Below are positions 5,311 to 18,699 of a stretch of DNA of 32,000 nt, piece after piece. Under the pieces are notes generated by a model. That model was not told the origin of the DNA, ran no database searches, and saw only the letters and a list, made by a program, of their open reading frames with translations. How positions within the stretch are numbered: position 1 is the first letter of the stretch; each line of letters opens with the position of its first letter. The position numbers and the translations under genes are program-made. Origin of the DNA: a virus; the IMG/VR virus record IMGVR_UViG_3300031576_000027, positions 11,319 to 43,318 of that record. One strand, given 5' to 3'.

Positions 5311-5784
5311 GTGACGGACCAGGACTTCCGCGATCGTGTCGTGCTGGCGGCGATCGGCCAGGTCGGCAAGCCCTACGTGTGGGGCGGCAACGGACCGGAC
5401 GGCTACGACTGCAGCGGCTTCGTCCTGTGGGTCTGGCGGCAGGTCGGCCTGGACCTGCCGGACCAGACCGCTGACCAGCTGTGGCGTGGACTGCAGCCTG
5501 GGATCGGCCCGCCAAAGGCAGGGGATCTGGCCTTCTACAGCAGCCCTGGGAAGCCCGGCAAGGCCACCCATGTCGTGCTGATCCTGCAAGCGGGTGGCAA
5601 CGTGGTCGCTGGCGCGAACGGCGGCGGCCCGCCGGACAAGGGCGAGACACCGGACGCCTACGCAGCGCGCATGCGCGCGCGCAACGCCATGGTCAGGGTC
5701 GAGGACGCCAGGCGCAACGGGACCCATTACCGCGACGGCCACATGGGGATCCGGCGCCCGCCGCTGGAACGGCTCAAGGTGTGA
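5311..5784 (+). CDS. NlpC/P60-family peptidoglycan endopeptidase (endolysin)
   Basis: GKPYVWGGNGPDGYDCSGFVLWVWRQVGLDLP (catalytic Cys context), then GDLAFY and ATHVVLI (His), the classic NlpC/P60 motif order. Confidence 0.85.
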   Translation: MTDQDFRDRVVLAAIGQVGKPYVWGGNGPDGYDCSGFVLWVWRQVGLDLPDQTADQLWRGLQPGIGPPKAGDLAFYSSPGKPGKATHVVLILQAGGNVVAGANGGGPPDKGETPDAYAARMRARNAMVRVEDARRNGTHYRDGHMGIRRPPLERLKV

Positions 5785-5878
5785 CCCGCCCATGGTTGTG
5801 GACGGGGAGATCACGAACGTGTGGGGCCTACGTCTAGGCAGACCTGGGCGCCCACCGGACGACAACTGGAGGACGGCG

Positions 5879-6136
5879 ATGATCGGACTGCTCAAGAAGC
5901 TGGTAAGCACGGAAACGGTGTCGGGCATGACGGTGGCCAAGGGGCCGCTGGCCAGCCAGCGGAACTGGCTGGCCGCGATCTTGTTCCCGCTGCTGGTCGT
6001 CGCGAATCGGCGCTGGAACCTCGGCCTGACCGACCACGACCTGCTGGTGCTCGCCGGGGTGCTGGGCGCGCTGGTGCTGGGCAAGTCCGCCGAGGACGCC
6101 ATGAAAAGGAGCGCCGCGATCAAGGGGAGCAAGTAG
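5879..6136 (+). CDS. small membrane protein with two hydrophobic segments, holin candidate
   Basis: TGGAGGAC lies 5 nt upstream of ATG 5879 (alternative ATG at 5792 in the same frame). Hydrophobic segments WLAAILFPLLVVA and LLVLAGVLGALVLG. Sits directly after the endolysin. Confidence 0.55.
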   Translation: MIGLLKKLVSTETVSGMTVAKGPLASQRNWLAAILFPLLVVANRRWNLGLTDHDLLVLAGVLGALVLGKSAEDAMKRSAAIKGSK

Positions 6137-6140
6137 GATC

Positions 6141-6250
6141 ACGGCGCCGTGGTCAGGCATGCCCTGGCTGGGCGAGGCGTGGCGAGGTAAGGCGGGCCCG
6201 GGTCGGGCTTGGCGTGGCACAAGGACGGGCCGCTTGGCGACAGGCGGCCC
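6141..6250 (+). repeat. (GGCNN)n pentamer-phased repeat patch
   Basis: ggctg ggcga ggcgt ggcga ggtaa ggcgg ... ggctt ggcgt ggcac. Confidence 0.7.
6227..6250 (+). terminator. GC hairpin after the lysis cassette (weak U-tail)
   Basis: GGGCCGC-ttggcgacag-GCGGCCC followed by gttgatcttc. Confidence 0.4.
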
Positions 6251-6264
6251 GTTGATCTTCGGAG

Positions 6265-6294
6265 TTGCCTGAACTGGTAAGCTGTGGTTACCAT
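6265..6294 (+). promoter_or_regulatory. candidate sigma70/sigmaA-type promoter for the first non-structural operon
   Basis: TTGCCT (6265-6270), 18-nt spacer, TACCAT (6289-6294, TAnnnT), about 20 nt upstream of the SD of gene 6315. Confidence 0.4.
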
Positions 6295-6314
6295 CGGCCC
6301 GACAGGGGGTGACG

Positions 6315-6662
6315 ATGGCAACCGATCCGATCAGACCGCTTTACTGGATCCTCGATGATCACGGGGAACCGATCCCGGCCGACACGCTGACGTGGGCTGC
6401 GTGGTTCGAACAGACGCCGGCTGCGCGACAGCTGGCGTACGAGCGCGTGGGTGACGCGCAGATCAGCACCGTGTTCATCGGACTGGACATGGGGATGGGC
6501 CTTCAGTCGATCCCGCGACTGTGGGAGACGGCGGTGTTCGGCGGCGACCTGGCCGGGATGGTTCAGCGGTACCCGACGCGCGATGCCGCGCTGGCCGGGC
6601 ACGCAGACATCGTCCAGCAGATCCAGGCGATCGCGGACAAGGAGCGCCGATCCGATGACTGA
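6315..6662 (+). CDS. hypothetical phage protein
   Basis: AGGGGG lies 5 nt upstream of ATG 6315 (the track start 6309 is a GTG inside the SD). The LWETAVFGG motif resembles a small family I recall from actinophage genomes (memory only). Confidence 0.7.
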   Translation: MATDPIRPLYWILDDHGEPIPADTLTWAAWFEQTPAARQLAYERVGDAQISTVFIGLDMGMGLQSIPRLWETAVFGGDLAGMVQRYPTRDAALAGHADIVQQIQAIADKERRSDD

Positions 6663-7068
6663 GAATGCGAGACACAGCATGCCTCCAGCCTGTTCGGCGT
6701 GCTTCGTCCCGATCGAGGCGTTCGGCAAGGACCACTGGAGCACCTTCGCCTACATCGAAACGGTGGTCGTGGATCATCGTGGATACCCGGACCGGCGACG
6801 GATGCGCTGCGATGCCACGCTGCACCCAGGGCTGGCACATCTGTCGGGCGCATGTCCGCCAACGCGGATCAAGGACGGCCAGATCAGCAGCCACGATGAT
6901 TGGTCATGTGCGGACGACCTGGAGGCCGCCGGCCTGGTCAAACATGGTGGGACCGGGATGCATCCGCGCTTCGCCCTGACGCCGTACGGCAAGACCGTGG
7001 CGGCGATGCTGCGCGTCCACAAGGCATCTGGTGGACGCTATGCCGACTTCACCCCGGCCGGGCCATGA
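6655..7068 (+). CDS. putative winged-helix DNA-binding protein
   Basis: ATG overlaps the upstream stop by 8 nt, with AAGGAG upstream. C-terminal DDLEAAGLVKHGG..RFALTPYGKTVAAML resembles a MarR-like wing/helix. Confidence 0.55.
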   Translation: MTENARHSMPPACSACFVPIEAFGKDHWSTFAYIETVVVDHRGYPDRRRMRCDATLHPGLAHLSGACPPTRIKDGQISSHDDWSCADDLEAAGLVKHGGTGMHPRFALTPYGKTVAAMLRVHKASGGRYADFTPAGP

Positions 7069-7412
7069 CCCGCCACCCGCGCACCGGCAAGACGCGGCGC
7101 TTCCAGAACCCGCACCATCCGCTGGCGGTCTGGCTGCGCGATCGCGACATGACGTTGCGCGAAGCTGGCAAGCGATGGGGCGTCAGCCACGCGGCCCTGT
7201 CGCTGATCCTGACGCGCAAGCACAGGCCACGATGGAGTTTGGTGGTCAAGATTTCCAAGGACACCCGAATCCCGGTGATGGACCTACTGGATCGGACGCC
7301 TGCGGAACGGGACTTACGACACAGAACGGCGCGTAGCGAGGCCTGCCGCGGCGTGGCAGGGCATGGCGCGGCAAGGCGAGGTACGGCGGGCCAACGAAGG
7401 AGGAGGGGCTGA
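7065..7412 (+). CDS. helix-turn-helix (Cro/XRE-like) DNA-binding protein
   Basis: ATGA overlap with the upstream gene. MTLREAGKRWGVSHAALSLILTRK fits an HTH. The 3' ~70 nt of the ORF run through a (GGCNN)n repeat patch. Confidence 0.6.
   Translation: MTRHPRTGKTRRFQNPHHPLAVWLRDRDMTLREAGKRWGVSHAALSLILTRKHRPRWSLVVKISKDTRIPVMDLLDRTPAERDLRHRTARSEACRGVAGHGAARRGTAGQRRRRG
7328..7395 (+). repeat. (GGCNN)n pentamer-phased repeat patch (inside the 3' end of CDS 7065..7412)
   Basis: gcggc gtggc agggc atggc gcggc aaggc gaggt acggc gggcc. Confidence 0.7.
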
Positions 7413-7687
7413 TGGCCGAATGGACCCACAGGATGTGCGGCGAATGCTGGCTGGTCCAAGAGGGCGAGCTTGCGGATGCCCGTGCTGCGGACCATGCGGC
7501 GAACCATGATGACGATGACGACACGGTGGAGGCCATCCGCTTTACGATCCGGCGGCCGGTGACTGTGCGTCATGCGGCAGTCGGCACATGCTGCTTCTGC
7601 AAGGGGCGCACGTTCCTGGGGATCTACACGCGGCACGACCCGGCGCAGCTGCACTGCGCGGATCAGCACGAGGAGGACGGCGACTAG
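7412..7687 (+). CDS. small Cys-rich acidic protein
   Basis: GAAGGAGGAGG upstream; TGATG overlap. CGEC...CCFC Cys pairs. Confidence 0.65.
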   Translation: MAEWTHRMCGECWLVQEGELADARAADHAANHDDDDDTVEAIRFTIRRPVTVRHAAVGTCCFCKGRTFLGIYTRHDPAQLHCADQHEEDGD

Positions 7688-7695
7688 GAGCCCAT

Positions 7696-7790
7696 GGGAT
7701 GCCAGGGCGTGGCAGGGTTCGGTGAGGCTAGGCTGGCCTGGGCGTGACATGGCAAGGCGAGGTGCGGCGGGTCATGGTGACCGGCCGGCA
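7696..7790 (+). repeat. (GGCNN)n pentamer-phased repeat patch
   Basis: ggcgt ggcag ggttc ggtga ggcta ggctg ... ggcaa ggcga ggtgc ggcgg. Confidence 0.7.
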
Positions 7791-7816
7791 ACGGAAGCGA
7801 TCGACAGGAGGCGGCA

Positions 7817-8491
7817 ATGACGACAGGGAACGGAGCGGCAACGGCGGTCAACGAGGACCAGGTCAAGTACAAGACCGGCAAGACCAGCGGTAAGGGCGTG
7901 GTGGAGTTCGCGGAACCGTACGCGGTGGAAGTGTCCATCGCTGGCACGGAAGTACTCCTGATGCACCGCTGGGACACGGAAGCCGTGGCGGCGAAAGGCC
8001 GAGCCAAAAAAGGCTCTGCCGAGAAGAAGTCCGACAACATCGAAAGCTACTGCTACCGGACGGCGGACGGGGAATTGTGCATCCCGGGCCTGAACATCAA
8101 GGCTGCGATCTGCGAGGCCGCACGCTACATGCAGGACCCCAGGTCCCCGCGCAAGAGCGCGCGTGACTTGTTCCGCGCCGGCATCAAGATCAAGGGCGAC
8201 GCGCTGCTGGGCAAGGACACCTGGGACTTCATCGACACCCGAAAGGTCAACGTTCAGCGCAACGCCGTCCCCCGGTCGCGGCCGGCGTTCAATGCCGGTT
8301 GGTCCACGGACTTCGTCGTGTCGATTCTCCTGCCGGAGTACATCGACCAGGACACGTTGCACCAGGCAATCGAGCGCGCCGGGCGACTGGTCGGGGTCGG
8401 TGACTTCCGGCCGGACTTCGGCTTGTTCAGAATCGACAGTTACAAACTGATGACCGACGACGACGTGAAGGATCGCAAGAAGCGGAAGTGA
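7817..8491 (+). CDS. hypothetical protein (weak RAMP-like motifs, unverified)
   Basis: GACAGGAGG upstream of the ATG. 224 aa with G/C-rich third positions. CIPGLNIKAAICEAAR and C-terminal GRLVGVGDFRPDFGLFRI. Confidence 0.7.
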   Translation: MTTGNGAATAVNEDQVKYKTGKTSGKGVVEFAEPYAVEVSIAGTEVLLMHRWDTEAVAAKGRAKKGSAEKKSDNIESYCYRTADGELCIPGLNIKAAICEAARYMQDPRSPRKSARDLFRAGIKIKGDALLGKDTWDFIDTRKVNVQRNAVPRSRPAFNAGWSTDFVVSILLPEYIDQDTLHQAIERAGRLVGVGDFRPDFGLFRIDSYKLMTDDDVKDRKKRK

Positions 8492-8585
8492 TCGTGGCGG
8501 GGTACGGCGAGCCAGGCTCTGGTCTGGTTTGGCCAGGCGCGGCTGGGCGAGCCACGCCGCGGCGCGGCAAGGCAAGGCGCATCAC

Positions 8586-8613
8586 CCCACGCGCGCCTAT
8601 CCGCGCGCGTGGG
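8586..8613 (+). other. strong GC hairpin (11-bp stem)
   Basis: CCCACGCGCGC-ctatcc-GCGCGCGTGGG. Confidence 0.7.
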
Positions 8614-8909
8614 ACCAAGCAGCTGGTCTTTGACAACCGATGTGGCAGCAGGGCTAGGCTAGGCGCGGTTCGGCAGGACATGGCCAGGTAAGGCGTGTCA
8701 TGTCGGGGTTCGGTTCGGCAAGGCAGGGCAAGCCGTGACGTGGCAAGGTTCGGCGTGGCAAGGCTGGGCTGGGCAAGGATCGGCGCCAGGCAGCGCAGCT
8801 GGCGTCGGCTAGATCAAGGCATGGCGGTCCGAGGCCGGGCGGGATGTGGCTAGGTCTGGCAAGGCCGGGCGGGTCACGGCTGGGCTAGGCGCGGCAAGGC
8901 GAGGCTAGC

Positions 8910-8964
8910 GGGACGTCTGGTTGGACCAGTCCGGTGGCCGGTTCGATTCCGGCACGTTCCATCA
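8910..8964 (+). other. tRNA-like minihelix (acceptor stem plus T-arm, no anticodon arm)
   Basis: GCCGG-TTCGATT-CCGGC T-arm (8937-8953). GGGACGT (8910-8916) pairs with ACGTTCC (8954-8960) with one G-T. Only a 4-bp hairpin (ctgg-ttgga-ccag) lies in between. Confidence 0.45.
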
Positions 8965-9390
8965 GATCCCAGGCGCGGCGGGGCAGTGCATGCCTCGGCA
9001 TGGCTGGGCAAGGCGAGGCGGTCCATGGCGTGGCTTGGCAGGACGTGGTACGGCGTGGACATCGGAGCCGCGGGGTCGCACCTGCGGCGCCGGCCAGGAC
9101 GGGGCGAGGTCAGGCAAGGTGTGGTCAGGTCTGGCGTGGCATGGCCAGGCACGGTCGGGCAAGGCACGGCGGGGCATGGATCGCCGGGCGGCTCAATGCC
9201 GTCCCCGGCGGCTAGTGGTCCGGGCATGGTAGGGCCGGGCACGGCGCGGCTAGGCTTGGCGCGGCGGTGGCGGGGTTGGGCCTGGTTGGGTGGCGGCTAG
9301 GACGACGGGGCATGGCGAGGCAAGGCTTGGTTCGGCCAGGCGTGGTTAGGCGGGGCAAGGCAAGAGGTTGGCGTGGCAAGGCAAGTGTTC

Positions 9391-9419
9391 GACTGGCCGG
9401 GATCGCATCCAGGCCAGTC
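9391..9419 (+). other. hairpin (8-bp stem, 13-nt loop)
   Basis: GACTGGCC-gggatcgcatcca-GGCCAGTC. Confidence 0.6.
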
Positions 9420-9568
9420 GGCTAGATCCAGGCGGGGCTGGGCAAGGTGACGGCGAGGTAAGGCCGGGTTGGGCGTGGCAGGGCTAGGGTAGGTGCGGCA
9501 GGGACAGGCGTGGCATGGCGCCGCATGGCTAGATGCGGCATCGTAGGGATCGAACAGGAGGGACGACC

Positions 9569-11050
9569 GTGAAGATTCTCAATGTCCGTGGCGGTTTCGC
9601 GACCAACAGCAGCAGCACCCACTCTCTGCTGCTCCTGCCACCAGGGATCAAGGCATCCGACGACGTCGATGGCGGCCACTTCGGGTGGGACTTCTTCACG
9701 GCGGCATCCCGGGAGGCCAAACTGGACTACCTGGGCGAGATTCTGCGCGGCAATCTGGAGGCCGTGTTCGCTGCGGACTGGCAGGACGACACGGCGCGGG
9801 AGGCCAGGGATGCCAAGGTGGCCGGCATCGTGGCGGGCCTGATCGGGATGGAACCCAAGGGCGATGGTGTGGACCACCAGTCCGAGTGGGTGCTGCCGCG
9901 CAGCTGGGACGGCCAGGGTCTGGACGCGGACTTCGTGCGGGACCTGATGATCTGGATGATGCAGGACCGCCTGGCGATCCTGGGTGGCAACGACAACACC
10001 GACCAGACCCACCCGCTGGAAGGGCCCAGCGCCAGTGGCTTCCAGTTGCCGCTGGAACGCGATCGCAGATCGGCCGTCACGGTGGCGCGCCGGGATGATC
10101 TGCGCGGCGGGTACTGGGTGGTGTTCTCCCGGGACCACGGCAACAAGGTCCGCTTCCGCTTCGACACGGTCCACGACCGGCAGGCGGCTGCGCCTGACAA
10201 GTCCACCTGGCCGGAACTGGTGGACGTGAAGATCACGGACTGGTGCGACGCCGGCTGCAGCTACTGCTACCAGGGCAGCACGGTCCGCGGACAGCACGCC
10301 GACCTGGACTGGATCACGCGCCTGGCCGACGGCCTGGCCTCGATGCGCGTCTTCGAAGTGGCGCTGGGCGGCGGCGAGCCGACGGCGCATCCACACTTCC
10401 AGCAGATCCTGAACGTGTTCCGCAACCGTGGCGTGGTCCCGAACTTCACGACCAAGTCGCTGACCTGGTTGGACGGCCCCGGCGCGGTGGACATCCTGGA
10501 CACGTGCGGGACCTTCGCCTACAGCTGCGACACTGGCGACGAGGTCAGAATGCTGGCCCGACACTTGGACGCGGGCACCGTCGTGGCCAACCTGGGTGGC
10601 GAGCACCGATCGGACGTGGTCTGGCGCTGGCCGCGCCCCAACGTCCACCACGTCCTGGGATCGCAGGACATCGACGCGCTGCCCTACATCGTCAGGGCCT
10701 GCCACAAGGCGGGCCTGCAGCTGGTCCTGCTGGGCTTCAAGGACCAGGAGCGCGGGCACGGCCACAAGGTCTACCCGCACGATGGCTGGATCGACGCAGT
10801 GCGGTCCGCCTTGTCAGACAAGTCGTACGTGCGTGTCGCCATCGACACCGTCCTGGCCAGCCGGTACCAGGATCAGCTGCGGGCCAAGGGCGTGCCGCAG
10901 GTGATGTTCACGGTGCGGGAGGGAGCGTTCTCCTGCTACGTCGATGCGGTCGGCAAGACAGTCGCCCCGTCGTCCTTCTGCGATCGCGGTATGTACCGGC
11001 CAGTGGCGCCGGACGCGCAGTCGCTGACGATGGCCTACGGGATGTTCTGA
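9569..11050 (+). CDS. two-domain radical SAM enzyme (unknown N-terminal domain plus radical SAM core with Cys-containing C-terminal extension)
   Basis: ACAGGAGGGACGACC precedes GTG 9569. CDAGCSYCY = CxxxCxxC cluster, followed by ALGGGEP (SAM-binding GGEP). C-terminal FSCYVDAVGKTVAPSSFC resembles a twitch/SPASM-type element. The N-terminal ~225 aa (GGFATNSSSTHS...) are unassigned. Confidence 0.8.
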   Translation: MKILNVRGGFATNSSSTHSLLLLPPGIKASDDVDGGHFGWDFFTAASREAKLDYLGEILRGNLEAVFAADWQDDTAREARDAKVAGIVAGLIGMEPKGDGVDHQSEWVLPRSWDGQGLDADFVRDLMIWMMQDRLAILGGNDNTDQTHPLEGPSASGFQLPLERDRRSAVTVARRDDLRGGYWVVFSRDHGNKVRFRFDTVHDRQAAAPDKSTWPELVDVKITDWCDAGCSYCYQGSTVRGQHADLDWITRLADGLASMRVFEVALGGGEPTAHPHFQQILNVFRNRGVVPNFTTKSLTWLDGPGAVDILDTCGTFAYSCDTGDEVRMLARHLDAGTVVANLGGEHRSDVVWRWPRPNVHHVLGSQDIDALPYIVRACHKAGLQLVLLGFKDQERGHGHKVYPHDGWIDAVRSALSDKSYVRVAIDTVLASRYQDQLRAKGVPQVMFTVREGAFSCYVDAVGKTVAPSSFCDRGMYRPVAPDAQSLTMAYGMF

Positions 11051-11105
11051 TGCGGCGTGGCATGTCCAGGCTGGGCTAGGCAGGGCGCGGCAAGGCGGGG
11101 TTTGG
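11051..11105 (+). repeat. (GGCNN)n pentamer-phased repeat patch
   Basis: tgcgg cgtgg catgt ccagg ctggg ctagg caggg cgcgg caagg cgggg. Confidence 0.65.
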
Positions 11106-11139
11106 GCACCGCGCGGTTGACGATCTGACCGCGCGGTGC
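11106..11139 (+). other. 11-bp GC hairpin downstream of the radical SAM gene
   Basis: GCACCGCGCGG-ttgacgatctga-CCGCGCGGTGC; no U-tract. Confidence 0.6.
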
Positions 11140-11152
11140 TGTAGTCCGTGGC

Positions 11153-11525
11153 GGACAGAGGTTCCTTTACTGGATGGGCCGCGGCCTCCTGGTGCGACAC
11201 CAGGCGCTGTTCGTGATGCAGGCGGGTGGGACAGTGACCACGACCGGCTCATACCCGGTGCATCCCGGTGCGATCCCGGGGCCTGCTACCAAGCGCGCCA
11301 AGGCCGGGCAGGCTGCGGCGCAGATCCTATCCACCAACAGCGGACGACCCGACCGTGACGAATCCGGGAGGGAGCGACGGGCCAGGGCAACCTGGCCCGT
11401 TGTCTGTCCAGGGGTTGACGCTGGGCTGGGACATGTCACCATGGTGGTGGTCGTCAGGCGCCGTCAACGGCGCCCGTCGGACCTCCTGTCAGGGGGCCCC
11501 GCTCGTCACGGGGCCCCCGTTTTGT
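11153..11525 (+). ncRNA. candidate structured non-coding RNA / structured 3' UTR ending in an intrinsic terminator
   Basis: No credible ORF. Stable hairpins include GGGCCAGG-GCAA-CCTGGCCC (11379-11398, GNRA loop) and GGCGCCG-tcaa-CGGCGCC (11457-11474). Possible closing helix 11153-11165 / 11479-11490. Terminator at 11492-11525. Confidence 0.4.
11492..11525 (+). terminator. canonical rho-independent terminator
   Basis: GGGGGCCCCG-ctcgtca-CGGGGCCCCC followed by GTTTTGT. Confidence 0.85.
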
Positions 11526-11555
11526 ACGCGGCGCCAGGCCCGCACCTGTATGTGG

Positions 11556-11595
11556 TTATTTTCTTGTTGCATCCAAGGCCGACCTGTGGGATCAT
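11556..11595 (+). promoter_or_regulatory. conserved AT-rich promoter motif, copy 1 (sigma70/sigmaA-like)
   Basis: TTATTTTCTTGTTGCAT: TTGCAT (11567-11572), 17 nt, GATCAT (11590-11595). Followed by the ACAGGAGGACGACGACG start region of gene 11619. Confidence 0.6.
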
Positions 11596-11618
11596 ACCCA
11601 TGACAGGAGGACGACGAC

Positions 11619-11966
11619 GTGATGCACCTAGTGACGACGGACCAGGATCTGCTGGCGCGGTTGTGCCAACTGCTGGATGGCCAGCCGGCCGGCGTGATCA
11701 TGCGCGCGATCGCCAACGGCCAGGCGGTCCCCTACGCCGACATGATGCGCGCGCTGCTGGACGCGATGCGGTCCGTAGAGGGTGACGACCGCCTGCGGAT
11801 CGTGGCCTGCGCATCCGCAGCGACGCGGACGCGGTTCGACGCCGAGGGCCGCGTGCGCAAGATGGACCGTGACGAGCGGATGGCCGTGGCCCCGTGGTCC
11901 CCGATCCTGCGCAGCATGGGGATCCTGGACCCGCGGTACATCCCCCCGTTGCCCAGCCCGGACTGA
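11619..11966 (+). CDS. hypothetical protein (first gene of the MoxR/VWA operon)
   Basis: ACAGGAGGACGACGAC precedes GTG 11619 / ATG 11622. G/C-rich third positions. Confidence 0.7.
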   Translation: MMHLVTTDQDLLARLCQLLDGQPAGVIMRAIANGQAVPYADMMRALLDAMRSVEGDDRLRIVACASAATRTRFDAEGRVRKMDRDERMAVAPWSPILRSMGILDPRYIPPLPSPD

Positions 11967-12016
11967 TCCTGCTACAAGACCGCAGCACCTGACCCGATCC
12001 GACAGGAGACGACGAC

Positions 12017-17140: not shown

Positions 17141-17610
17141 TGGGCCAACGCTTCCTGCGCTGCTCCTTCGACTGGATCGTGGACGTCCTGCGTGGGGATG
17201 GCGCGCGGACCGTCACGATCACCAACGGGATCCCGGCCGGCGCCAAGGTGGTCAAGATTGGTGGCGCCATGCAAGCGCACGGGCCCGACATCCTGGAGAT
17301 GTTCTTGGAGCACCTCCACTGGCCGGATGCACAGCCAACGCCGACCATCCGGCCCATCTTCCACGTGATCAAGGCGCCTGCGGACGACATGCTGCTGGCC
17401 GAGATCCGGCGGGCCTTGCGCGCGGCCTACCCGGACCGGGCGGACGTGCTGATGGCGCAACTGATGTTCCGCCTGCATCGGCCTGTCGGGGGGGCCGTTG
17501 CCACGCAGGTCTACTGCCCAGCCTGTGGCCACGACGACCAGGAACACGGCAGTCCCGTCGGGTGCACGGCGCAGATCGGGGACGGGCACCACTGCGGCTG
17601 CCCGCGCTGA
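17140..17610 (+). CDS. hypothetical protein with C-terminal Cys/His cluster
   Basis: TGATG overlap. C-terminus reads YCPACGHDDQEHGSPVGCTAQIGDGHHCGC. Confidence 0.7.
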   Translation: MGQRFLRCSFDWIVDVLRGDGARTVTITNGIPAGAKVVKIGGAMQAHGPDILEMFLEHLHWPDAQPTPTIRPIFHVIKAPADDMLLAEIRRALRAAYPDRADVLMAQLMFRLHRPVGGAVATQVYCPACGHDDQEHGSPVGCTAQIGDGHHCGCPR

Positions 17611-17614
17611 CTGT

Positions 17615-17932
17615 CTATATCGGCTGACCGCCAGGCGCGTGCACTGACCGGTGGCAGGCGCTGCACAACCATACGACACTGCGAGGATTGCGATAATCGG
17701 GATGGTGGCCCTGTGCTGGCGTACCGCCGCACCGCTTGCACGACTGACGCTGCAGATGGCCGCGGCGCACCATCGAGTTTGTGTATGAGCGGCAATTAGC
17801 CTTCAACCGTTGTTCGTCCGTCAGATCGCTGTGGCGCGGGCGCTTGGCGCGCATCCATGCCGCATGACACACGCGCCCCCATCGCTGGCCAGGTCGTCGC
17901 GGTTCAGCCTTACATTTTGTGCACAAGCCCAT
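17615..17932 (-). CDS. HNH endonuclease
   Basis: CKRCGG..GHHPDYRNPRSVVWLCSACHRSVH (HNH beta-beta-alpha metal motif). Opposite strand to its neighbours. Noticeably more A/T-ending codons than the rest of the window. Confidence 0.8.
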   Translation of the reverse strand: MGLCTKCKAEPRRPGQRWGRVCHAAWMRAKRPRHSDLTDEQRLKANCRSYTNSMVRRGHLQRQSCKRCGGTPAQGHHPDYRNPRSVVWLCSACHRSVHAPGGQPI

Positions 17933-17972
17933 ACCGCGATTGTACTAGTTCCACGGGTGTTTCAGTGGAACA

Positions 17973-18293
17973 CTAGTCCAGCGGGATGACCTGCAACTGC
18001 ATGCCGACCAGCCCAGGTGGCCGGGGGGTGCCTGCCCGCGCCAGGACCAGGTGAGCCGGGTTGCAGCACCCAGAGGTCCCGCAGGTCGGCCGGACCGCCA
18101 GGTCCCGCGGTACGGGCCCGTGACGCAGCCTGTAGGCCAGCCTGCTGGCTGGCCAGGACGTCCCGCGCCAGGACACCGTGGGGTGGCTGGCCGCCTGCCC
18201 GTGTGGCGCCCGGTACGGCCAGCAGCCGTCCGGCCCTGCGGCCTGGTCCGTCCGACTCCAGAAGGCCGCTTCCGTCACTGGTTCCCGTGTCAT
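17973..18293 (-). CDS. HNH-family (GCW..NP.HL type) homing-endonuclease-like protein, catalytic residues apparently substituted
   Basis: GCWPYRAP...ASRLAYRLRHGPVPRDLAVRPTCGTSGCCNPAHLVL matches the phage GCWxW...AHRxxY...G.IP.GL.V.H.C.N..C.NP.HL pattern, but with RP where DH/H is expected. Confidence 0.6.
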   Translation of the reverse strand: MTREPVTEAAFWSRTDQAAGPDGCWPYRAPHGQAASHPTVSWRGTSWPASRLAYRLRHGPVPRDLAVRPTCGTSGCCNPAHLVLARAGTPRPPGLVGMQLQVIPLD

Positions 18294-18311
18294 GGATCAC
18301 AAGCTATCACA

Positions 18312-18444
18312 TCCAGGAGGGGGATGGTGCCCCCTCTTCTGCGGATCCTATGTCGCGCTGTGGATAGACTTGCGGTGTAAGTCTCTGATATTGCGCCAAC
18401 CTACGGTATAGACACGTGGCACGGTCGGTGTATAGACACAAGCC
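18312..18444 (+). promoter_or_regulatory. intergenic module copy B
   Basis: Hairpin 18317-18336 (GAGGGGG/CCCCCTC). CTGCGGATCCTATGTCGCGCTGTGGATAGA. Box1 CGGTATAGACA 18404-18414; TGGCACG 18417-18423; box2 GTGTATAGACA 18428-18438; ATG 18445. Confidence 0.8.
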
Positions 18445-18699
18445 ATGGCGCTGTGCATCGACATCAAGACCACGGACGGACGGGATGCGTCCATCTCCTT
18501 CGCCCGCATCGAGCGCGAGCGCAATGTTGTCGTCCTGGGCGCCTGGGTCGATGGCGTCCCTGGGGACCACGTCCTTACCATCGGGCTGGACGTCCTGGAC
18601 ATGGGCAACCTCTGGATCTGCCTCCCGGGCGGCGCGGCGCTGGAAGGCGCGGCTGCGCGCCGGGTCGCTGACCTGGTCCGCGCGGGGGCTGCGTCGTGA
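18445..18699 (+). CDS. hypothetical protein (apparently leaderless start)
   Basis: ATG lies 8 nt after TATAGA of module B, with no SD. Confidence 0.7.
   Translation: MALCIDIKTTDGRDASISFARIERERNVVVLGAWVDGVPGDHVLTIGLDVLDMGNLWICLPGGAALEGAAARRVADLVRAGAAS

What the first reader, a model, noticed from the sequence alone, without database searches (positions are those of the whole stretch)
8492..9560. 1.07-kb non-coding tract built from 5-nt-phased GGC triplets: (GGCNN)n
The largest gap in this otherwise compact genome is not random sequence. Over long runs a GGC triplet (CNNGG read in the other register) recurs every 5 nt in an unbroken phase. In 8649-8783, 27 consecutive pentamers read caggg ctagg ctagg cgcgg ttcgg cagga catgg ccagg taagg cgtgt catgt cgggg ttcgg ttcgg caagg caggg caagc cgtga cgtgg caagg ttcgg cgtgg caagg ctggg ctggg caagg atcgg. 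Of these, 22 end in GG and 21 begin with C. A 5-nt period cannot be coding and is half a helical turn of DNA. The closest precedent I know is the binding site of ring-shaped proteins such as TRAP, which reads (G/U)AG triplets separated by 2-3-nt spacers. By analogy, the tract could wrap an oligomeric ring or filament protein as RNA or ssDNA. It could also be an iteron-like origin or partition site, or a decoy/sponge. It also contains strong hairpins (8586-8613, 9391-9419) and a tRNA-like element. It is flanked by an unassigned protein (7817..8491) and a radical SAM enzyme.
Basis: seen in the sequence. Interest (0 to 1): 0.7.

Follow-up and report, generated by a model that had tools for sequence, protein, structure and literature searches.

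The report
Phage VIPR guide-RNA array (GGYNN repeats)
The 1.07-kb "non-coding" tract is a real, highly non-random array of 5-nt GGY-N-N repeats that encodes guide RNAs (vrRNAs) for the neighbouring Cas7-like Vipr protein, so it is a new example of the VIPR RNA-guided DNA-silencing systems of phages first described in 2026 preprints.

Summary
GGC recurs at lag 5, 10 ... 30 in 8492-9560 at z = 17-24 over dinucleotide shuffles, on the + strand only. The unit is GGY-N-N: GGY is conserved and NN is near-random.

A filament protein does read one triplet per 5 nt of RNA, but the tract is not a decoy, origin or partition site.

The "unassigned" 224-aa ORF just upstream (7817-8491) is a homolog of the solved SUSP1 Vipr protein (PDB 36pp; profile E 9e-14; hhalign 98.6%). 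It keeps the GGY-contacting residues, and its predicted fold matches Cas7/Csm3.

Two 2026 bioRxiv preprints define VIPR systems as exactly this combination: Vipr plus vrRNAs of alternating GGY/NN. The NN dinucleotides pair with dsDNA under a 1-nt-skip rule to silence competing phages.

The association holds in both directions. 76 of 120 viral loci found by the DNA pattern alone encode Vipr. 71 of 77 genome loci found by Vipr alone carry the tract on the same strand.

Four more short tracts lie in nearby spacers, so the locus spans 6148-11105.

I found no natural targets, no vap accessory gene and no conserved tail.

Verdict: a new member of a known (very recently described) kind.

The parts
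7817..8491 (+). vipr gene: a 224-aa Cas7-like RAMP protein, the predicted vrRNA-binding filament subunit.
   Evidence: The only PDB sequence match is 36pp 'SUSP1 Vipr protein' (phmmer E 4.8e-7; profile E 8.7e-14 over chain residues 5-189). hhalign against SUSP1 Vipr gives 98.6%, E 1.2e-15. H50, R155, D196, F197 and R198 align to the SUSP1 GGY-contact residues H17, R138, D177, W178 and R179. The AF2 model (pLDDT 82) has its best matches to Csm3, type VII Cas7 and Cmr4, E about 1e-6. It also matches phrog_4652.
7703..7778 (+). Upstream solitary vrRNA candidate of about 15 GGYNN units, ending in the GGCAA GGCGA GGTGC GGCGG module.
   Evidence: HMM parse and sequence. It sits in the same position as vrRNA1 upstream of vipr in SUSP1.
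8493..9548 (+). Main downstream vrRNA array (the finding). It has seven repeat blocks separated by 30-87-nt spacers: 8493-8578 (17 units), 8648-8784 (27), 8815-8908 (19), 8969-9058 (18), 9089-9179 (18), 9220-9364 (9+19) and 9452-9548 (19).
   Evidence: Periodicity statistics, unit composition and HMM parse. The same parser recovers the published vrRNAs of SUSP1.
8586..8613 (+). GC-rich 11-bp hairpin after block 1. Candidate 3' cap, terminator or processing structure.
   Evidence: strand folding on 8579-8647: -31.6 kcal/mol, z = -2.85.
8910..8961 (+). tRNA-like element between blocks 3 and 4. It has a 7-bp acceptor-like stem (GGGACGT/ACGTTCC), a small hairpin and a canonical T-arm (GCCGG-TTCGATT-CCGGC). 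Possible RNase P/Z processing signal (inferred).
   Evidence: Sequence. Full-length but sub-threshold match to mascRNA-menRNA RF01684 (16.1 bits, E 0.33) and a tmRNA T-arm match (E 0.0096). Not called by ARAGORN. The MFE fold is an alternative rod.
9063..9092 (+). GC hairpin after block 4.
   Evidence: strand folding: -22.3 kcal/mol, z = -3.33.
9182..9210 (+). GC hairpin after block 5.
   Evidence: strand folding: -24.5 kcal/mol, z = -2.36.
9387..9422 (+).
   Evidence: strand folding: -24.9 kcal/mol, z = -3.54. Repeat family D7.
6148..6253 (+). Solitary vrRNA-like tract (about 14 units, 6148-6218) directly after a stop codon, plus a 13-bp hairpin at 6224-6253.
   Evidence: Hairpin: -27 kcal/mol, z = -4.07.
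7331..7390 (+). Solitary vrRNA-like tract (about 12 units) ending in GGCGC GGCAA GGCGA GGTAC GGCGG. It overlaps the 3' end of the called ORF 7065-7412.
   Evidence: Gene calls.
11051..11140 (+). Solitary vrRNA-like tract (about 11 units, 11051-11105) directly after the radical SAM stop codon, plus a 14-bp hairpin at 11105-11140.
   Evidence: Hairpin: -29 kcal/mol, z = -3.85.

Best explanation
The tract is the downstream guide-RNA array of a phage-encoded VIPR (Viral Interference Programmable Repeat) system, and its protein component is the adjacent ORF 7817-8491 (Vipr).

Inferred mechanism, by homology to the characterised SUSP1 and P. fulva systems:
1. The + strand is transcribed and cut or terminated into vrRNAs. 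Each vrRNA is a run of GGY-N-N units, here about 17-27 per block, closed by a few conserved units (GGCAA GGCGA GG...) and a GC hairpin.
2. Vipr protomers polymerise along each vrRNA, one per 5-nt unit. They bury G1, G2 and Y3 using H50, R155, D196, F197 and R198, and expose N4N5.
3. The exposed dinucleotides pair with a dsDNA target of the form xNN xNN ... (1-nt skip, typically the codon wobble base). This forms a gapped R-loop/triplex that blocks transcription of a competing phage, satellite or prophage.

Shown here: the periodicity, the GGY/NN information pattern, the strand specificity, Vipr homology and fold, conservation of the RNA-contact residues, and the two-way genomic association of tract and gene.

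Inferred: transcription, processing, filament formation, DNA targeting and the biological targets.
For: - Periodicity z = 17-24. Entropy is 0.17/0.76/0.83 bits for GGY against 1.90/1.97 bits for NN. The signal is on the + strand only.
- Vipr homology: PDB 36pp 'SUSP1 Vipr protein' is the sole sequence hit. hhalign gives 98.6%. The fold matches Cas7-family RAMPs.
- The published definition of VIPR is a Vipr RAMP plus vrRNAs of 9-16 (up to 30) YNNGG repeats, one upstream and an array downstream, mostly in phages (10.64898/2026.04.26.720920; 10.64898/2026.04.26.720927).
- Positive control: my parser applied to the SUSP1 locus returns 1 upstream and 3 downstream vrRNAs of 11-16 units.
- Association: 76 of 120 viral loci retrieved only by (GGYNN)x10 encode a Vipr-profile hit. 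71 of 77 genome loci retrieved only by Vipr protein carry a dense GGY lag-5 tract on the vipr strand, against 1 of 77 on the other strand.
- The closest annotated phage, DSL-LC04 (51% aa identity, 53% GC), has a roughly 300-nt GGYNN tract next to its homolog, so the period is conserved while the sequence is not.
- Phage context: tail-fibre-like protein, NlpC/P60 and PHROG hits.
Against: - No natural target obeying the 1-nt-skip rule was found, although the searches were restricted to exact seeds in capped scans.
- No vap accessory gene could be identified.
- The spacers after the blocks are not a conserved 'tail' as in SUSP1. They are different hairpins.
- vrRNA boundaries are unknown and no sigma-70-like promoter was detected.
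- The identity to SUSP1 Vipr is low (about 28% over 170 columns), so this is a distant clade whose biochemistry has not been tested.
- The supporting literature is two preprints from one laboratory.
Confidence: 0.88

Rival explanations
1. The tract is a protein sponge or decoy rather than a set of guides. In this reading it is a long GGY-rich RNA that titrates a host or rival RNA-binding protein, for example the Vipr of a competing phage, or a TRAP/CsrA-like regulator. Its NN content would then be irrelevant.
For: GGY is common to all VIPR types, so any Vipr could in principle load onto it. The array is unusually long, with more than 125 units. No targets were found. The tails are heterogeneous.
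Against: The phage encodes its own Vipr immediately upstream, on the same strand. The block sizes of 17-27 units, separated by structured spacers, look like discrete guides, as in SUSP1. NN entropy is near-maximal rather than drifting to the 68% GC background. No TRAP or CsrA homolog is associated.
Confidence: 0.05
2. The tract is a DNA-level element. It could be an iteron-type replication origin, a partition (centromere) site or a packaging site, bound as dsDNA by a protein that reads GGC every half helical turn.
For: It is the largest non-coding gap in the region where gene calls are available. It is repetitive and contains hairpins.
Against: The signal is strictly strand-asymmetric: GGY is on the gene strand in 71 of 77 loci and on the other strand in 1 of 77. 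It is scattered over five spacers. Its conserved partner is an RRM/Cas7-fold RNA-binding protein. Published sRNA-seq and cryo-EM show the homologous repeats act as RNA.
Confidence: 0.02
3. The tract forms arrays of two-tetrad G-quadruplexes (GG N3 repeats) in RNA or ssDNA. These would act as a structural or regulatory element independent of any dedicated protein.
For: GG recurs every 5 nt for long runs, which formally satisfies G2N3 quadruplex patterns.
Against: Position 3 is a pyrimidine in 177 of 180 units, which a G4 does not require but the Vipr Y-pocket does. The tract co-occurs tightly with Vipr. In the solved complex the guanines are held by protein.
Confidence: 0.02
4. The tract is a decaying microsatellite: a slippage-generated pentanucleotide repeat with no function.
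For: A few viral loci do carry perfect pentanucleotide microsatellites (L060, L112, L119, L120).
Against: 15 of the 16 possible dinucleotides occur at NN while GGY stays fixed. Decay would erode all five positions equally. Tandem Repeats Finder sees only weak period-15 fragments. The pattern is conserved across loci with 36-71% GC.
Confidence: 0.01

Closest known systems
VIPR systems, type II, exemplified by Escherichia phage SUSP1 (bioRxiv 10.64898/2026.04.26.720920 and 10.64898/2026.04.26.720927; PDB 36pp)
   Same: A Vipr homolog with conserved GGY-contact residues. vrRNA tracts of GGY/NN units on the same strand, with one tract upstream of vipr and an array downstream. GGY is fixed and NN is hypervariable. 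The context is a phage genome. The last units of each guide are conserved (GGTAT GG in SUSP1; GGCAA GGCGA GG here).
   Different: - About 28% identity to SUSP1 Vipr, with F197 in place of W178.
- No vap gene between vipr and the array, and no vap1 homolog anywhere in the window.
- Blocks of 17-27 units against 11-16 in SUSP1.
- At least 7 blocks downstream against 3 in SUSP1.
- The spacers are different GC hairpins and one tRNA-like element, instead of a conserved 68-72-nt pseudoknot tail.
- Three further solitary tracts lie in neighbouring spacers, interleaved with unrelated genes, including a radical SAM enzyme.
Class 1 CRISPR-Cas backbone filaments (Cas7/Csm3/Cmr4 on crRNA)
   Same: The predicted fold of the 224-aa protein matches Csm3, Cas7 and Cmr4 (E about 1e-6, TM about 0.5). 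In both systems protomers polymerise along a guide RNA and a thumb flips bases periodically.
   Different: The period is 5 nt with three guide bases sequestered, against 6 nt with one flipped. There is no CRISPR repeat-spacer array, no other cas genes and no adaptation module. The guide is read non-contiguously.
TRAP (trp RNA-binding attenuation protein) bound to (G/U)AG-N2-3 repeats
   Different: There is no TRAP homolog here. The triplet is GGY, not GAG/UAG. The assembly is an open helical filament of unlimited length rather than an 11-mer ring. The spacers carry the information (DNA targeting) instead of being irrelevant. The function is DNA silencing, not attenuation.

Membership tests
VIPR system | Encodes a Vipr protein: a RAMP homolog with an RRM core, G-loop and thumb. 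| tested here: met
   ORF 7817-8491. PDB 36pp 'SUSP1 Vipr protein' is the only PDB sequence hit (E 4.8e-7 single sequence; 8.7e-14 profile). hhalign gives 98.6%. The AF2 model's top matches are Cas7-family RAMPs. The G-loop motif GVGDFRP aligns to GVGDWRP.
VIPR system | Residues that recognise the GGY motif are conserved (SUSP1 H17, R138, D177, W178, R179). | tested here: met
   They align to H50, R155, D196, F197 and R198. H50, R155, D196 and R198 are invariant in 27 homologs. W to F keeps an aromatic residue. The equivalent of K33 is ambiguous (A63 or K65) within a Lys-rich segment.
VIPR system | vrRNA loci: tandem YNNGG (GGY/NN) repeats flanking vipr on its strand. The paper requires at least 4 units; 9-16 is typical and up to 30 is reported. 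| tested here: met
   125 perfect units occur in chains of at least 3 within 8492-9560, and the longest chain has 16 units. Blocks have 17-27 units. All are on the + strand. There is one tract upstream (7703-7778) and an array downstream, as in SUSP1.
VIPR system | GGY is conserved while NN is hypervariable. | tested here: met
   Entropy is 0.17/0.76/0.83 bits for GGY against 1.90/1.97 bits for NN over 180 units. 15 of the 16 dinucleotides are used.
VIPR system | Each vrRNA ends in a conserved, structured 3' tail (a pseudoknot in the SUSP1 clade). | tested here: inconclusive
   Most blocks end in a shared module, GGCGC GGCAA GGCGA GG.. (10 sense and 0 antisense copies of GGYAAGGYRRG), and are followed by stable GC hairpins. 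The hairpins differ in sequence, and no pseudoknot or common tail was found.
VIPR system | An accessory gene (vap1-6) accompanies vipr. The paper says 'typically', so this is not universal. | tested here: inconclusive
   The window has no homolog of SUSP1 vap1 or of the DSL-LC04 downstream gene. None of the window's neighbouring genes (HTH-like 7065-7412, Cys-rich 7412-7687, radical SAM 9569-11050) recurs next to vipr in about 200 loci. Sequences of vap2-6 are not available to test.
VIPR system | vrRNAs are expressed as discrete small RNAs and co-purify with Vipr as a helical filament. | not testable with these tools
   This needs sRNA-seq, pull-down or cryo-EM. Only hairpins were seen, and no sigma-70-like promoters.
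VIPR system | The NN dinucleotides match natural DNA targets under the 1-nt-skip rule (>=80% NN match), usually in competing mobile elements. | tested here: inconclusive
   No target was found. Exact-seed scans of viral, metagenome and genome collections gave either no hits or seed hits that fail on extension. The local 2-Mb scan is at the level of shuffles. The best match is guide v4 against the phage's own vipr gene, 22/28 = 79%. The tools do not allow a mismatch-tolerant search of large collections.
VIPR system | A viral or proviral genomic context. | tested here: met
   PHROG hits for six of the ten proteins scanned. Tail-fibre-like and NlpC/P60 genes lie upstream on a 79-kb contig. The nearest annotated relative is phage DSL-LC04.
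TRAP-RNA attenuation system | A TRAP (MtrB) 11-mer ring protein and (G/U)AG triplet repeats in a leader RNA. | tested here: not met
   The triplet is GGY. The partner protein has a Cas7/RRM fold, not TRAP. Pfam gives no hit for the partner protein.
CRISPR-Cas (class 1) | A repeat-spacer CRISPR array plus a multi-gene cas operon. | tested here: not met
   The repeat finder and TRF show no 25-40-nt direct repeats with unique spacers. The only Cas-like gene is the single Cas7-like Vipr.

The most novel reading that the evidence does not exclude
This locus may represent an undescribed VIPR architecture with four features.
1. It lacks a vap gene.
2. Its multi-guide array is punctuated by heterogeneous hairpins and a tRNA-like minihelix (8910-8961), which would recruit host RNase P/Z for processing, in the way hammerhead-interspersed arrays use ribozymes.
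3. Single-guide cassettes are appended to the 3' ends of several neighbouring early genes.
4. One guide (8496-8565) is directed at the most conserved segment of vipr genes. It matches the phage's own vipr at 22/28 NN positions in wobble-skip register. This would imply either autoregulation of vipr or an anti-VIPR weapon aimed at rival phages that stays just below the self-targeting threshold.
Probability: 0.2. Interest if true: 0.6.

Novelty: new member of a known kind. Interest (0 to 1): 0.42.

Why it matters
VIPR is a very recently reported class of RNA-guided DNA recognition, proposed as an ancestor of CRISPR RAMPs, and it uses a non-contiguous guide code. This window adds a distant, high-GC, metagenomic member with an unusually large array: at least 7 downstream blocks plus 4 solitary tracts, about 180 units in all.

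It also shows that the system can be recognised from raw sequence by one simple signature, a strand-specific 5-nt GGY periodicity. That signature alone retrieved more than 120 viral contigs. Standard tools miss it: Tandem Repeats Finder reports only period-15 fragments, Rfam has no model, and gene callers translate through the repeats.

The differences seen here bear on how vrRNAs are matured and on whether VIPR systems regulate or attack one another. These are the absence of vap, the heterogeneous hairpin spacers, the tRNA-like element and the near-self-matching guide.

Tried and rejected
**Searches for the tract or its relatives that gave nothing**
- Megablast of 7000-12000 against phages: no match.
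- Single-protein search for related loci in viral contigs: nothing.
- Rfam: no family in 5500-12000 at E <= 1, hence no hammerhead or other ribozyme in the array. Only sub-threshold matches at the tRNA-like element.
- Sigma-70 promoter scan: none. Intrinsic-terminator scan: nothing relevant.
- Tandem Repeats Finder: only period-15 or period-21 fragments, so it does not detect the period-5 structure.

**Target hunting under the 1-nt-skip rule**
- Local scans of the window plus about 2 Mb of fetched loci are at shuffle level, except guide v4 against its own vipr.
- Collection scans:
  - v4 units 5-14, viral: 0 hits.
  - v4 relaxed self-compatible pattern, viral: 0 hits.
  - v4 units 5-14, metagenome: 1 hit, which fails on extension (1 of 8 positions in the four upstream flanking units), 46% GC and no vipr.
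  - v10 units 3-13, genomes: 0 hits.
  - v10 and v12 9-unit seeds, viral: 0 hits.
  - v14b and v4 8-unit seeds, viral: 8 and 6 hits, all random on extension.
- None of the 120 closest Vipr homolog proteins is more codon-compatible with guide v4 than the phage's own protein.

**vap search**
- blastp and tblastn of the window's neighbouring genes against all loci: no co-occurrence with vipr.
- Clustering of the ORFs next to vipr: only translated-repeat artefacts and a phage replication-module synteny that is absent from the window.
- SUSP1 vap1 and the DSL-LC04 downstream gene: no homolog in the window.

**tRNA-like elements in other arrays**
- Only L088 has a comparable T-arm. A second, stricter script was uninformative.

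**Readings considered and rejected**
- G-quadruplex array, iteron/partition site, TRAP-like attenuator and microsatellite. See the rival explanations.
Full report
**1. The observation**

The 27 pentamers quoted for 8649-8783 are reproduced exactly, with 22 ending in GG and 21 beginning with C.

In 8492-9560 the GGC autocorrelation at lags 5, 10, 15, 20, 25 and 30 is 57, 57, 44, 45, 43 and 41. Dinucleotide-preserving shuffles give 4.6 +/- 2.1, so z = 17-24. Of 115 consecutive GGC spacings, 57 are exactly 5 and 22 are exactly 10. The complementary triplet GCC has no such signal, so the feature is strand-specific.

The real unit is GGY-N-N. In chains of at least 3 perfect units there are 125 units, and position 3 is C in 93 and T in 25. 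Over 180 units parsed across the window, the entropy is 0.17, 0.76 and 0.83 bits for G, G and Y, and 1.90 and 1.97 bits for the two N positions. That is nearly maximal despite a 68% G+C genome.

The feature is not confined to the reported coordinates. The same repeats fill four other + strand spacers: 6148-6218, 7331-7390, 7703-7778 and 11051-11105. Tandem Repeats Finder reports only period-15 fragments and Rfam has no match.

**2. What it is**

These span 38-71% G+C and carry tracts of 200-1700 nt. Nearly all have degenerate NN, and only five are simple microsatellites.

The closest annotated phage by the adjacent 224-aa protein is DSL-LC04 (51% identity, 53% G+C). It has a roughly 300-nt GGYNN tract next to its homolog. 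The period is therefore conserved while the sequence is not.

A literature search for 'GGYNN' found bioRxiv 10.64898/2026.04.26.720920 and its structural companion 10.64898/2026.04.26.720927. They describe VIPR systems as follows:
- A phage-encoded Vipr protein, an ancestral Cas7-like RAMP.
- vrRNAs made of 9-16 (up to 30) GGY/NN repeats with a structured 3' tail, encoded upstream and in an array downstream of vipr.
- Vipr protomers polymerise on the vrRNA, one per repeat, and sequester GGY.
- The NN dinucleotides pair with dsDNA in which every third base is skipped.
- The result is transcriptional repression of competing phages, satellites or prophages.

**3. Membership tests**

*The protein.* The ORF 7817-8491 has a single PDB sequence match, 36pp 'SUSP1 Vipr protein' (E 4.8e-7). 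A 27-sequence profile raises this to E 8.7e-14 over chain residues 5-189, and hhalign gives 98.6%.

The residues that the cryo-EM paper reports as contacting GGY (H17, R138, D177, W178, R179) align to H50, R155, D196, F197 and R198. Four of these are invariant in the family alignment.

An AlphaFold model (pLDDT 82) matches Csm3, type VII Cas7 and Cmr4 best (E about 1e-6). That structure library predates the Vipr entry.

*Positive control.* My repeat parser applied to the SUSP1 locus returns exactly the published layout. There is one vrRNA upstream of vipr, then vap1, then three vrRNAs of 11-16 units. In the downstream array the first two vrRNAs are each followed by a conserved 68-72-nt tail spacer.

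*The window layout.* The parser finds a 15-unit tract upstream of vipr and seven downstream blocks of 17-28 units.

*Association.* It holds in both directions:
- 76 of 120 viral loci found by DNA pattern alone encode a Vipr-profile hit.
- 71 of 77 bacterial or archaeal genome loci found by Vipr protein alone carry a dense GGY lag-5 tract on the vipr strand, against 1 of 77 on the opposite strand.

*Distribution.* The Vipr clade is spread over many phyla, with Phycisphaerales most frequent, so no host can be assigned to this phage. The source is a 78,981-bp ENA metagenome contig with phage structural and lysis genes upstream.

**4. How it most likely works here**

By homology, the + strand tracts are transcribed and matured into vrRNAs. 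Vipr then coats each one, with one protomer per 5-nt unit. GGY is buried and N4N5 are displayed to read xNN-coded dsDNA targets and silence them.

Shown here: the sequence code, the partner protein and its contact residues, and the association between them. Inferred: transcription, processing, filament formation and targeting.

Most blocks end in a shared module, GGCGC GGCAA GGCGA GG.... There are 10 sense and 0 antisense copies of GGYAAGGYRRG in the window. A related boundary recurs every 58-146 nt in L096. The blocks are followed by GC-rich hairpins of unrelated sequence. I take these as the constant 3' ends and caps of the guides.

**5. What differs from, or is unresolved relative to, the described systems**

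- **No vap gene.** None could be identified. Nothing lies between vipr and the array, there is no vap1 homolog, and none of the neighbouring genes (HTH-like, Cys-rich, radical SAM) recurs beside vipr in about 200 loci.
- **No conserved tail.** The spacers are not a conserved tail sequence.
- **A tRNA-like minihelix.** One spacer, at 8910-8961, has this form, with a sub-threshold mascRNA-like match. It could serve as an RNase P/Z processing signal. Only one other locus (L088) shows something similar.
- **No natural targets.** They gave either no hit or seed hits that are random on extension. A mismatch-tolerant scan of 2 Mb of fetched loci is at shuffle level.
- **One above-chance match.** The guide at 8496-8565 matches the phage's own vipr gene at 7942-7983 in 22 of 28 NN positions. 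No shuffle out of 500 reaches that score. The skip base falls on codon position 3, and the site encodes the conserved beta-strand carrying H50. This is just below the paper's 80% threshold. It is compatible with an anti-VIPR guide or with autoregulation, but it is not proof of either.

**6. Rivals**

- A DNA-level iteron or partition site is contradicted by the strict strand asymmetry and by the RNA-binding partner protein.
- A G-quadruplex array does not explain the pyrimidine at position 3.
- A decaying microsatellite does not explain GGY staying fixed while NN is free.
- A sponge or decoy role cannot be fully excluded. It is unnecessary, though, given a cognate Vipr gene and discrete guide-sized blocks.

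**7. Verdict**

The locus is a new, distant member of the VIPR systems. That kind is known only from 2026 preprints, so the novelty call is 'new member of a known kind'. Interest is moderate, and rests on the array size, the absence of vap, the spacer architecture and the near-self guide.

Noticed in passing
window 8496-8565 versus 7942-7983: [quoted passage not shown] 0 of 500 unit-order shuffles reach 22 in the window. Its next-best local hit (21/28) lies about 80 nt into the vipr gene of another locus, L178.
   Followed up: partly
window 8910-8961 (also L088 around 946): A tRNA-like minihelix sits inside the array. It has a 7-bp acceptor-like stem, a small hairpin and a canonical T-arm with a TTCGATT loop. 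It makes a full-length but sub-threshold match to the RNase P/Z-processed mascRNA model (16.1 bits). Only one other fetched locus (L088) has a T-arm-like motif at a tract end.
   Followed up: partly
window 11217-11291: ARAGORN calls a tRNA-Met (CAT) here, but Rfam's tRNA model gives no match even at E <= 10 on a 141-nt stretch. The element contains a 10-nt tandem repeat (CCCGGTGCGAT x2.5). It may be a degenerate or tRNA-like element rather than a functional tRNA. It lies about 110 nt downstream of a solitary vrRNA-like tract.
   Followed up: partly
window 7065-7412: The gene call for the HTH-like protein runs through the 7331-7390 GGYNN tract, giving a C-terminus of ...RGVAGHGAARRGTAGQRRRRG. 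G-rich repeats contain no stop codons, so ORF finders extend or invent ORFs across vrRNA tracts. In clustering, translated repeats formed a spurious 59-locus 'protein family'.
   Followed up: partly
NN positions of all window tracts (180 units): C is depleted at both N positions (13% and 17%, against 32% in the window), and the dinucleotide CC never occurs. This is possibly selection against pairing with the many GG motifs, which would keep the guides unstructured.
   Followed up: no
window 9569-11050: A 493-aa radical SAM protein is flanked on both sides by vrRNA-like tracts. It has a long N-terminal extension and is 33% identical over 97% of its length to a Salmonella phage Arash protein. 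It does not co-occur with vipr in other loci, so it is probably cargo rather than an accessory gene.
   Followed up: partly
window 17610-18450: This is the second-largest non-coding gap. It contains an inverted repeat (about 17944-17977, ACTAGTTCCAC...GTGGAACACTAGT) and direct repeats GTATAGACAC at about 18406 and about 18430, just before the next + strand gene. It is probably a regulatory or operator region, and it has no GGY periodicity.
   Followed up: no
L096 3411-3770 (IMG/VR contig, 39% G+C): In this low-GC relative the array shows a recurring boundary, GGTAAGGTGAGGTAAGGCTAATGGG, at 58-146-nt spacings (146, 131 and 58 nt between the four copies). It is the AT-rich counterpart of the window's GGCAAGGCGAGG end module, and it suggests a clade-wide conserved guide terminus.
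   Followed up: partly
L181, L176, L161, L125 (genome loci): Some cellular or proviral loci carry uninterrupted perfect runs of 22-72 GGYNN units (L181: 72 units). This is far longer than the 9-30 repeats quoted for vrRNAs.
   Followed up: no
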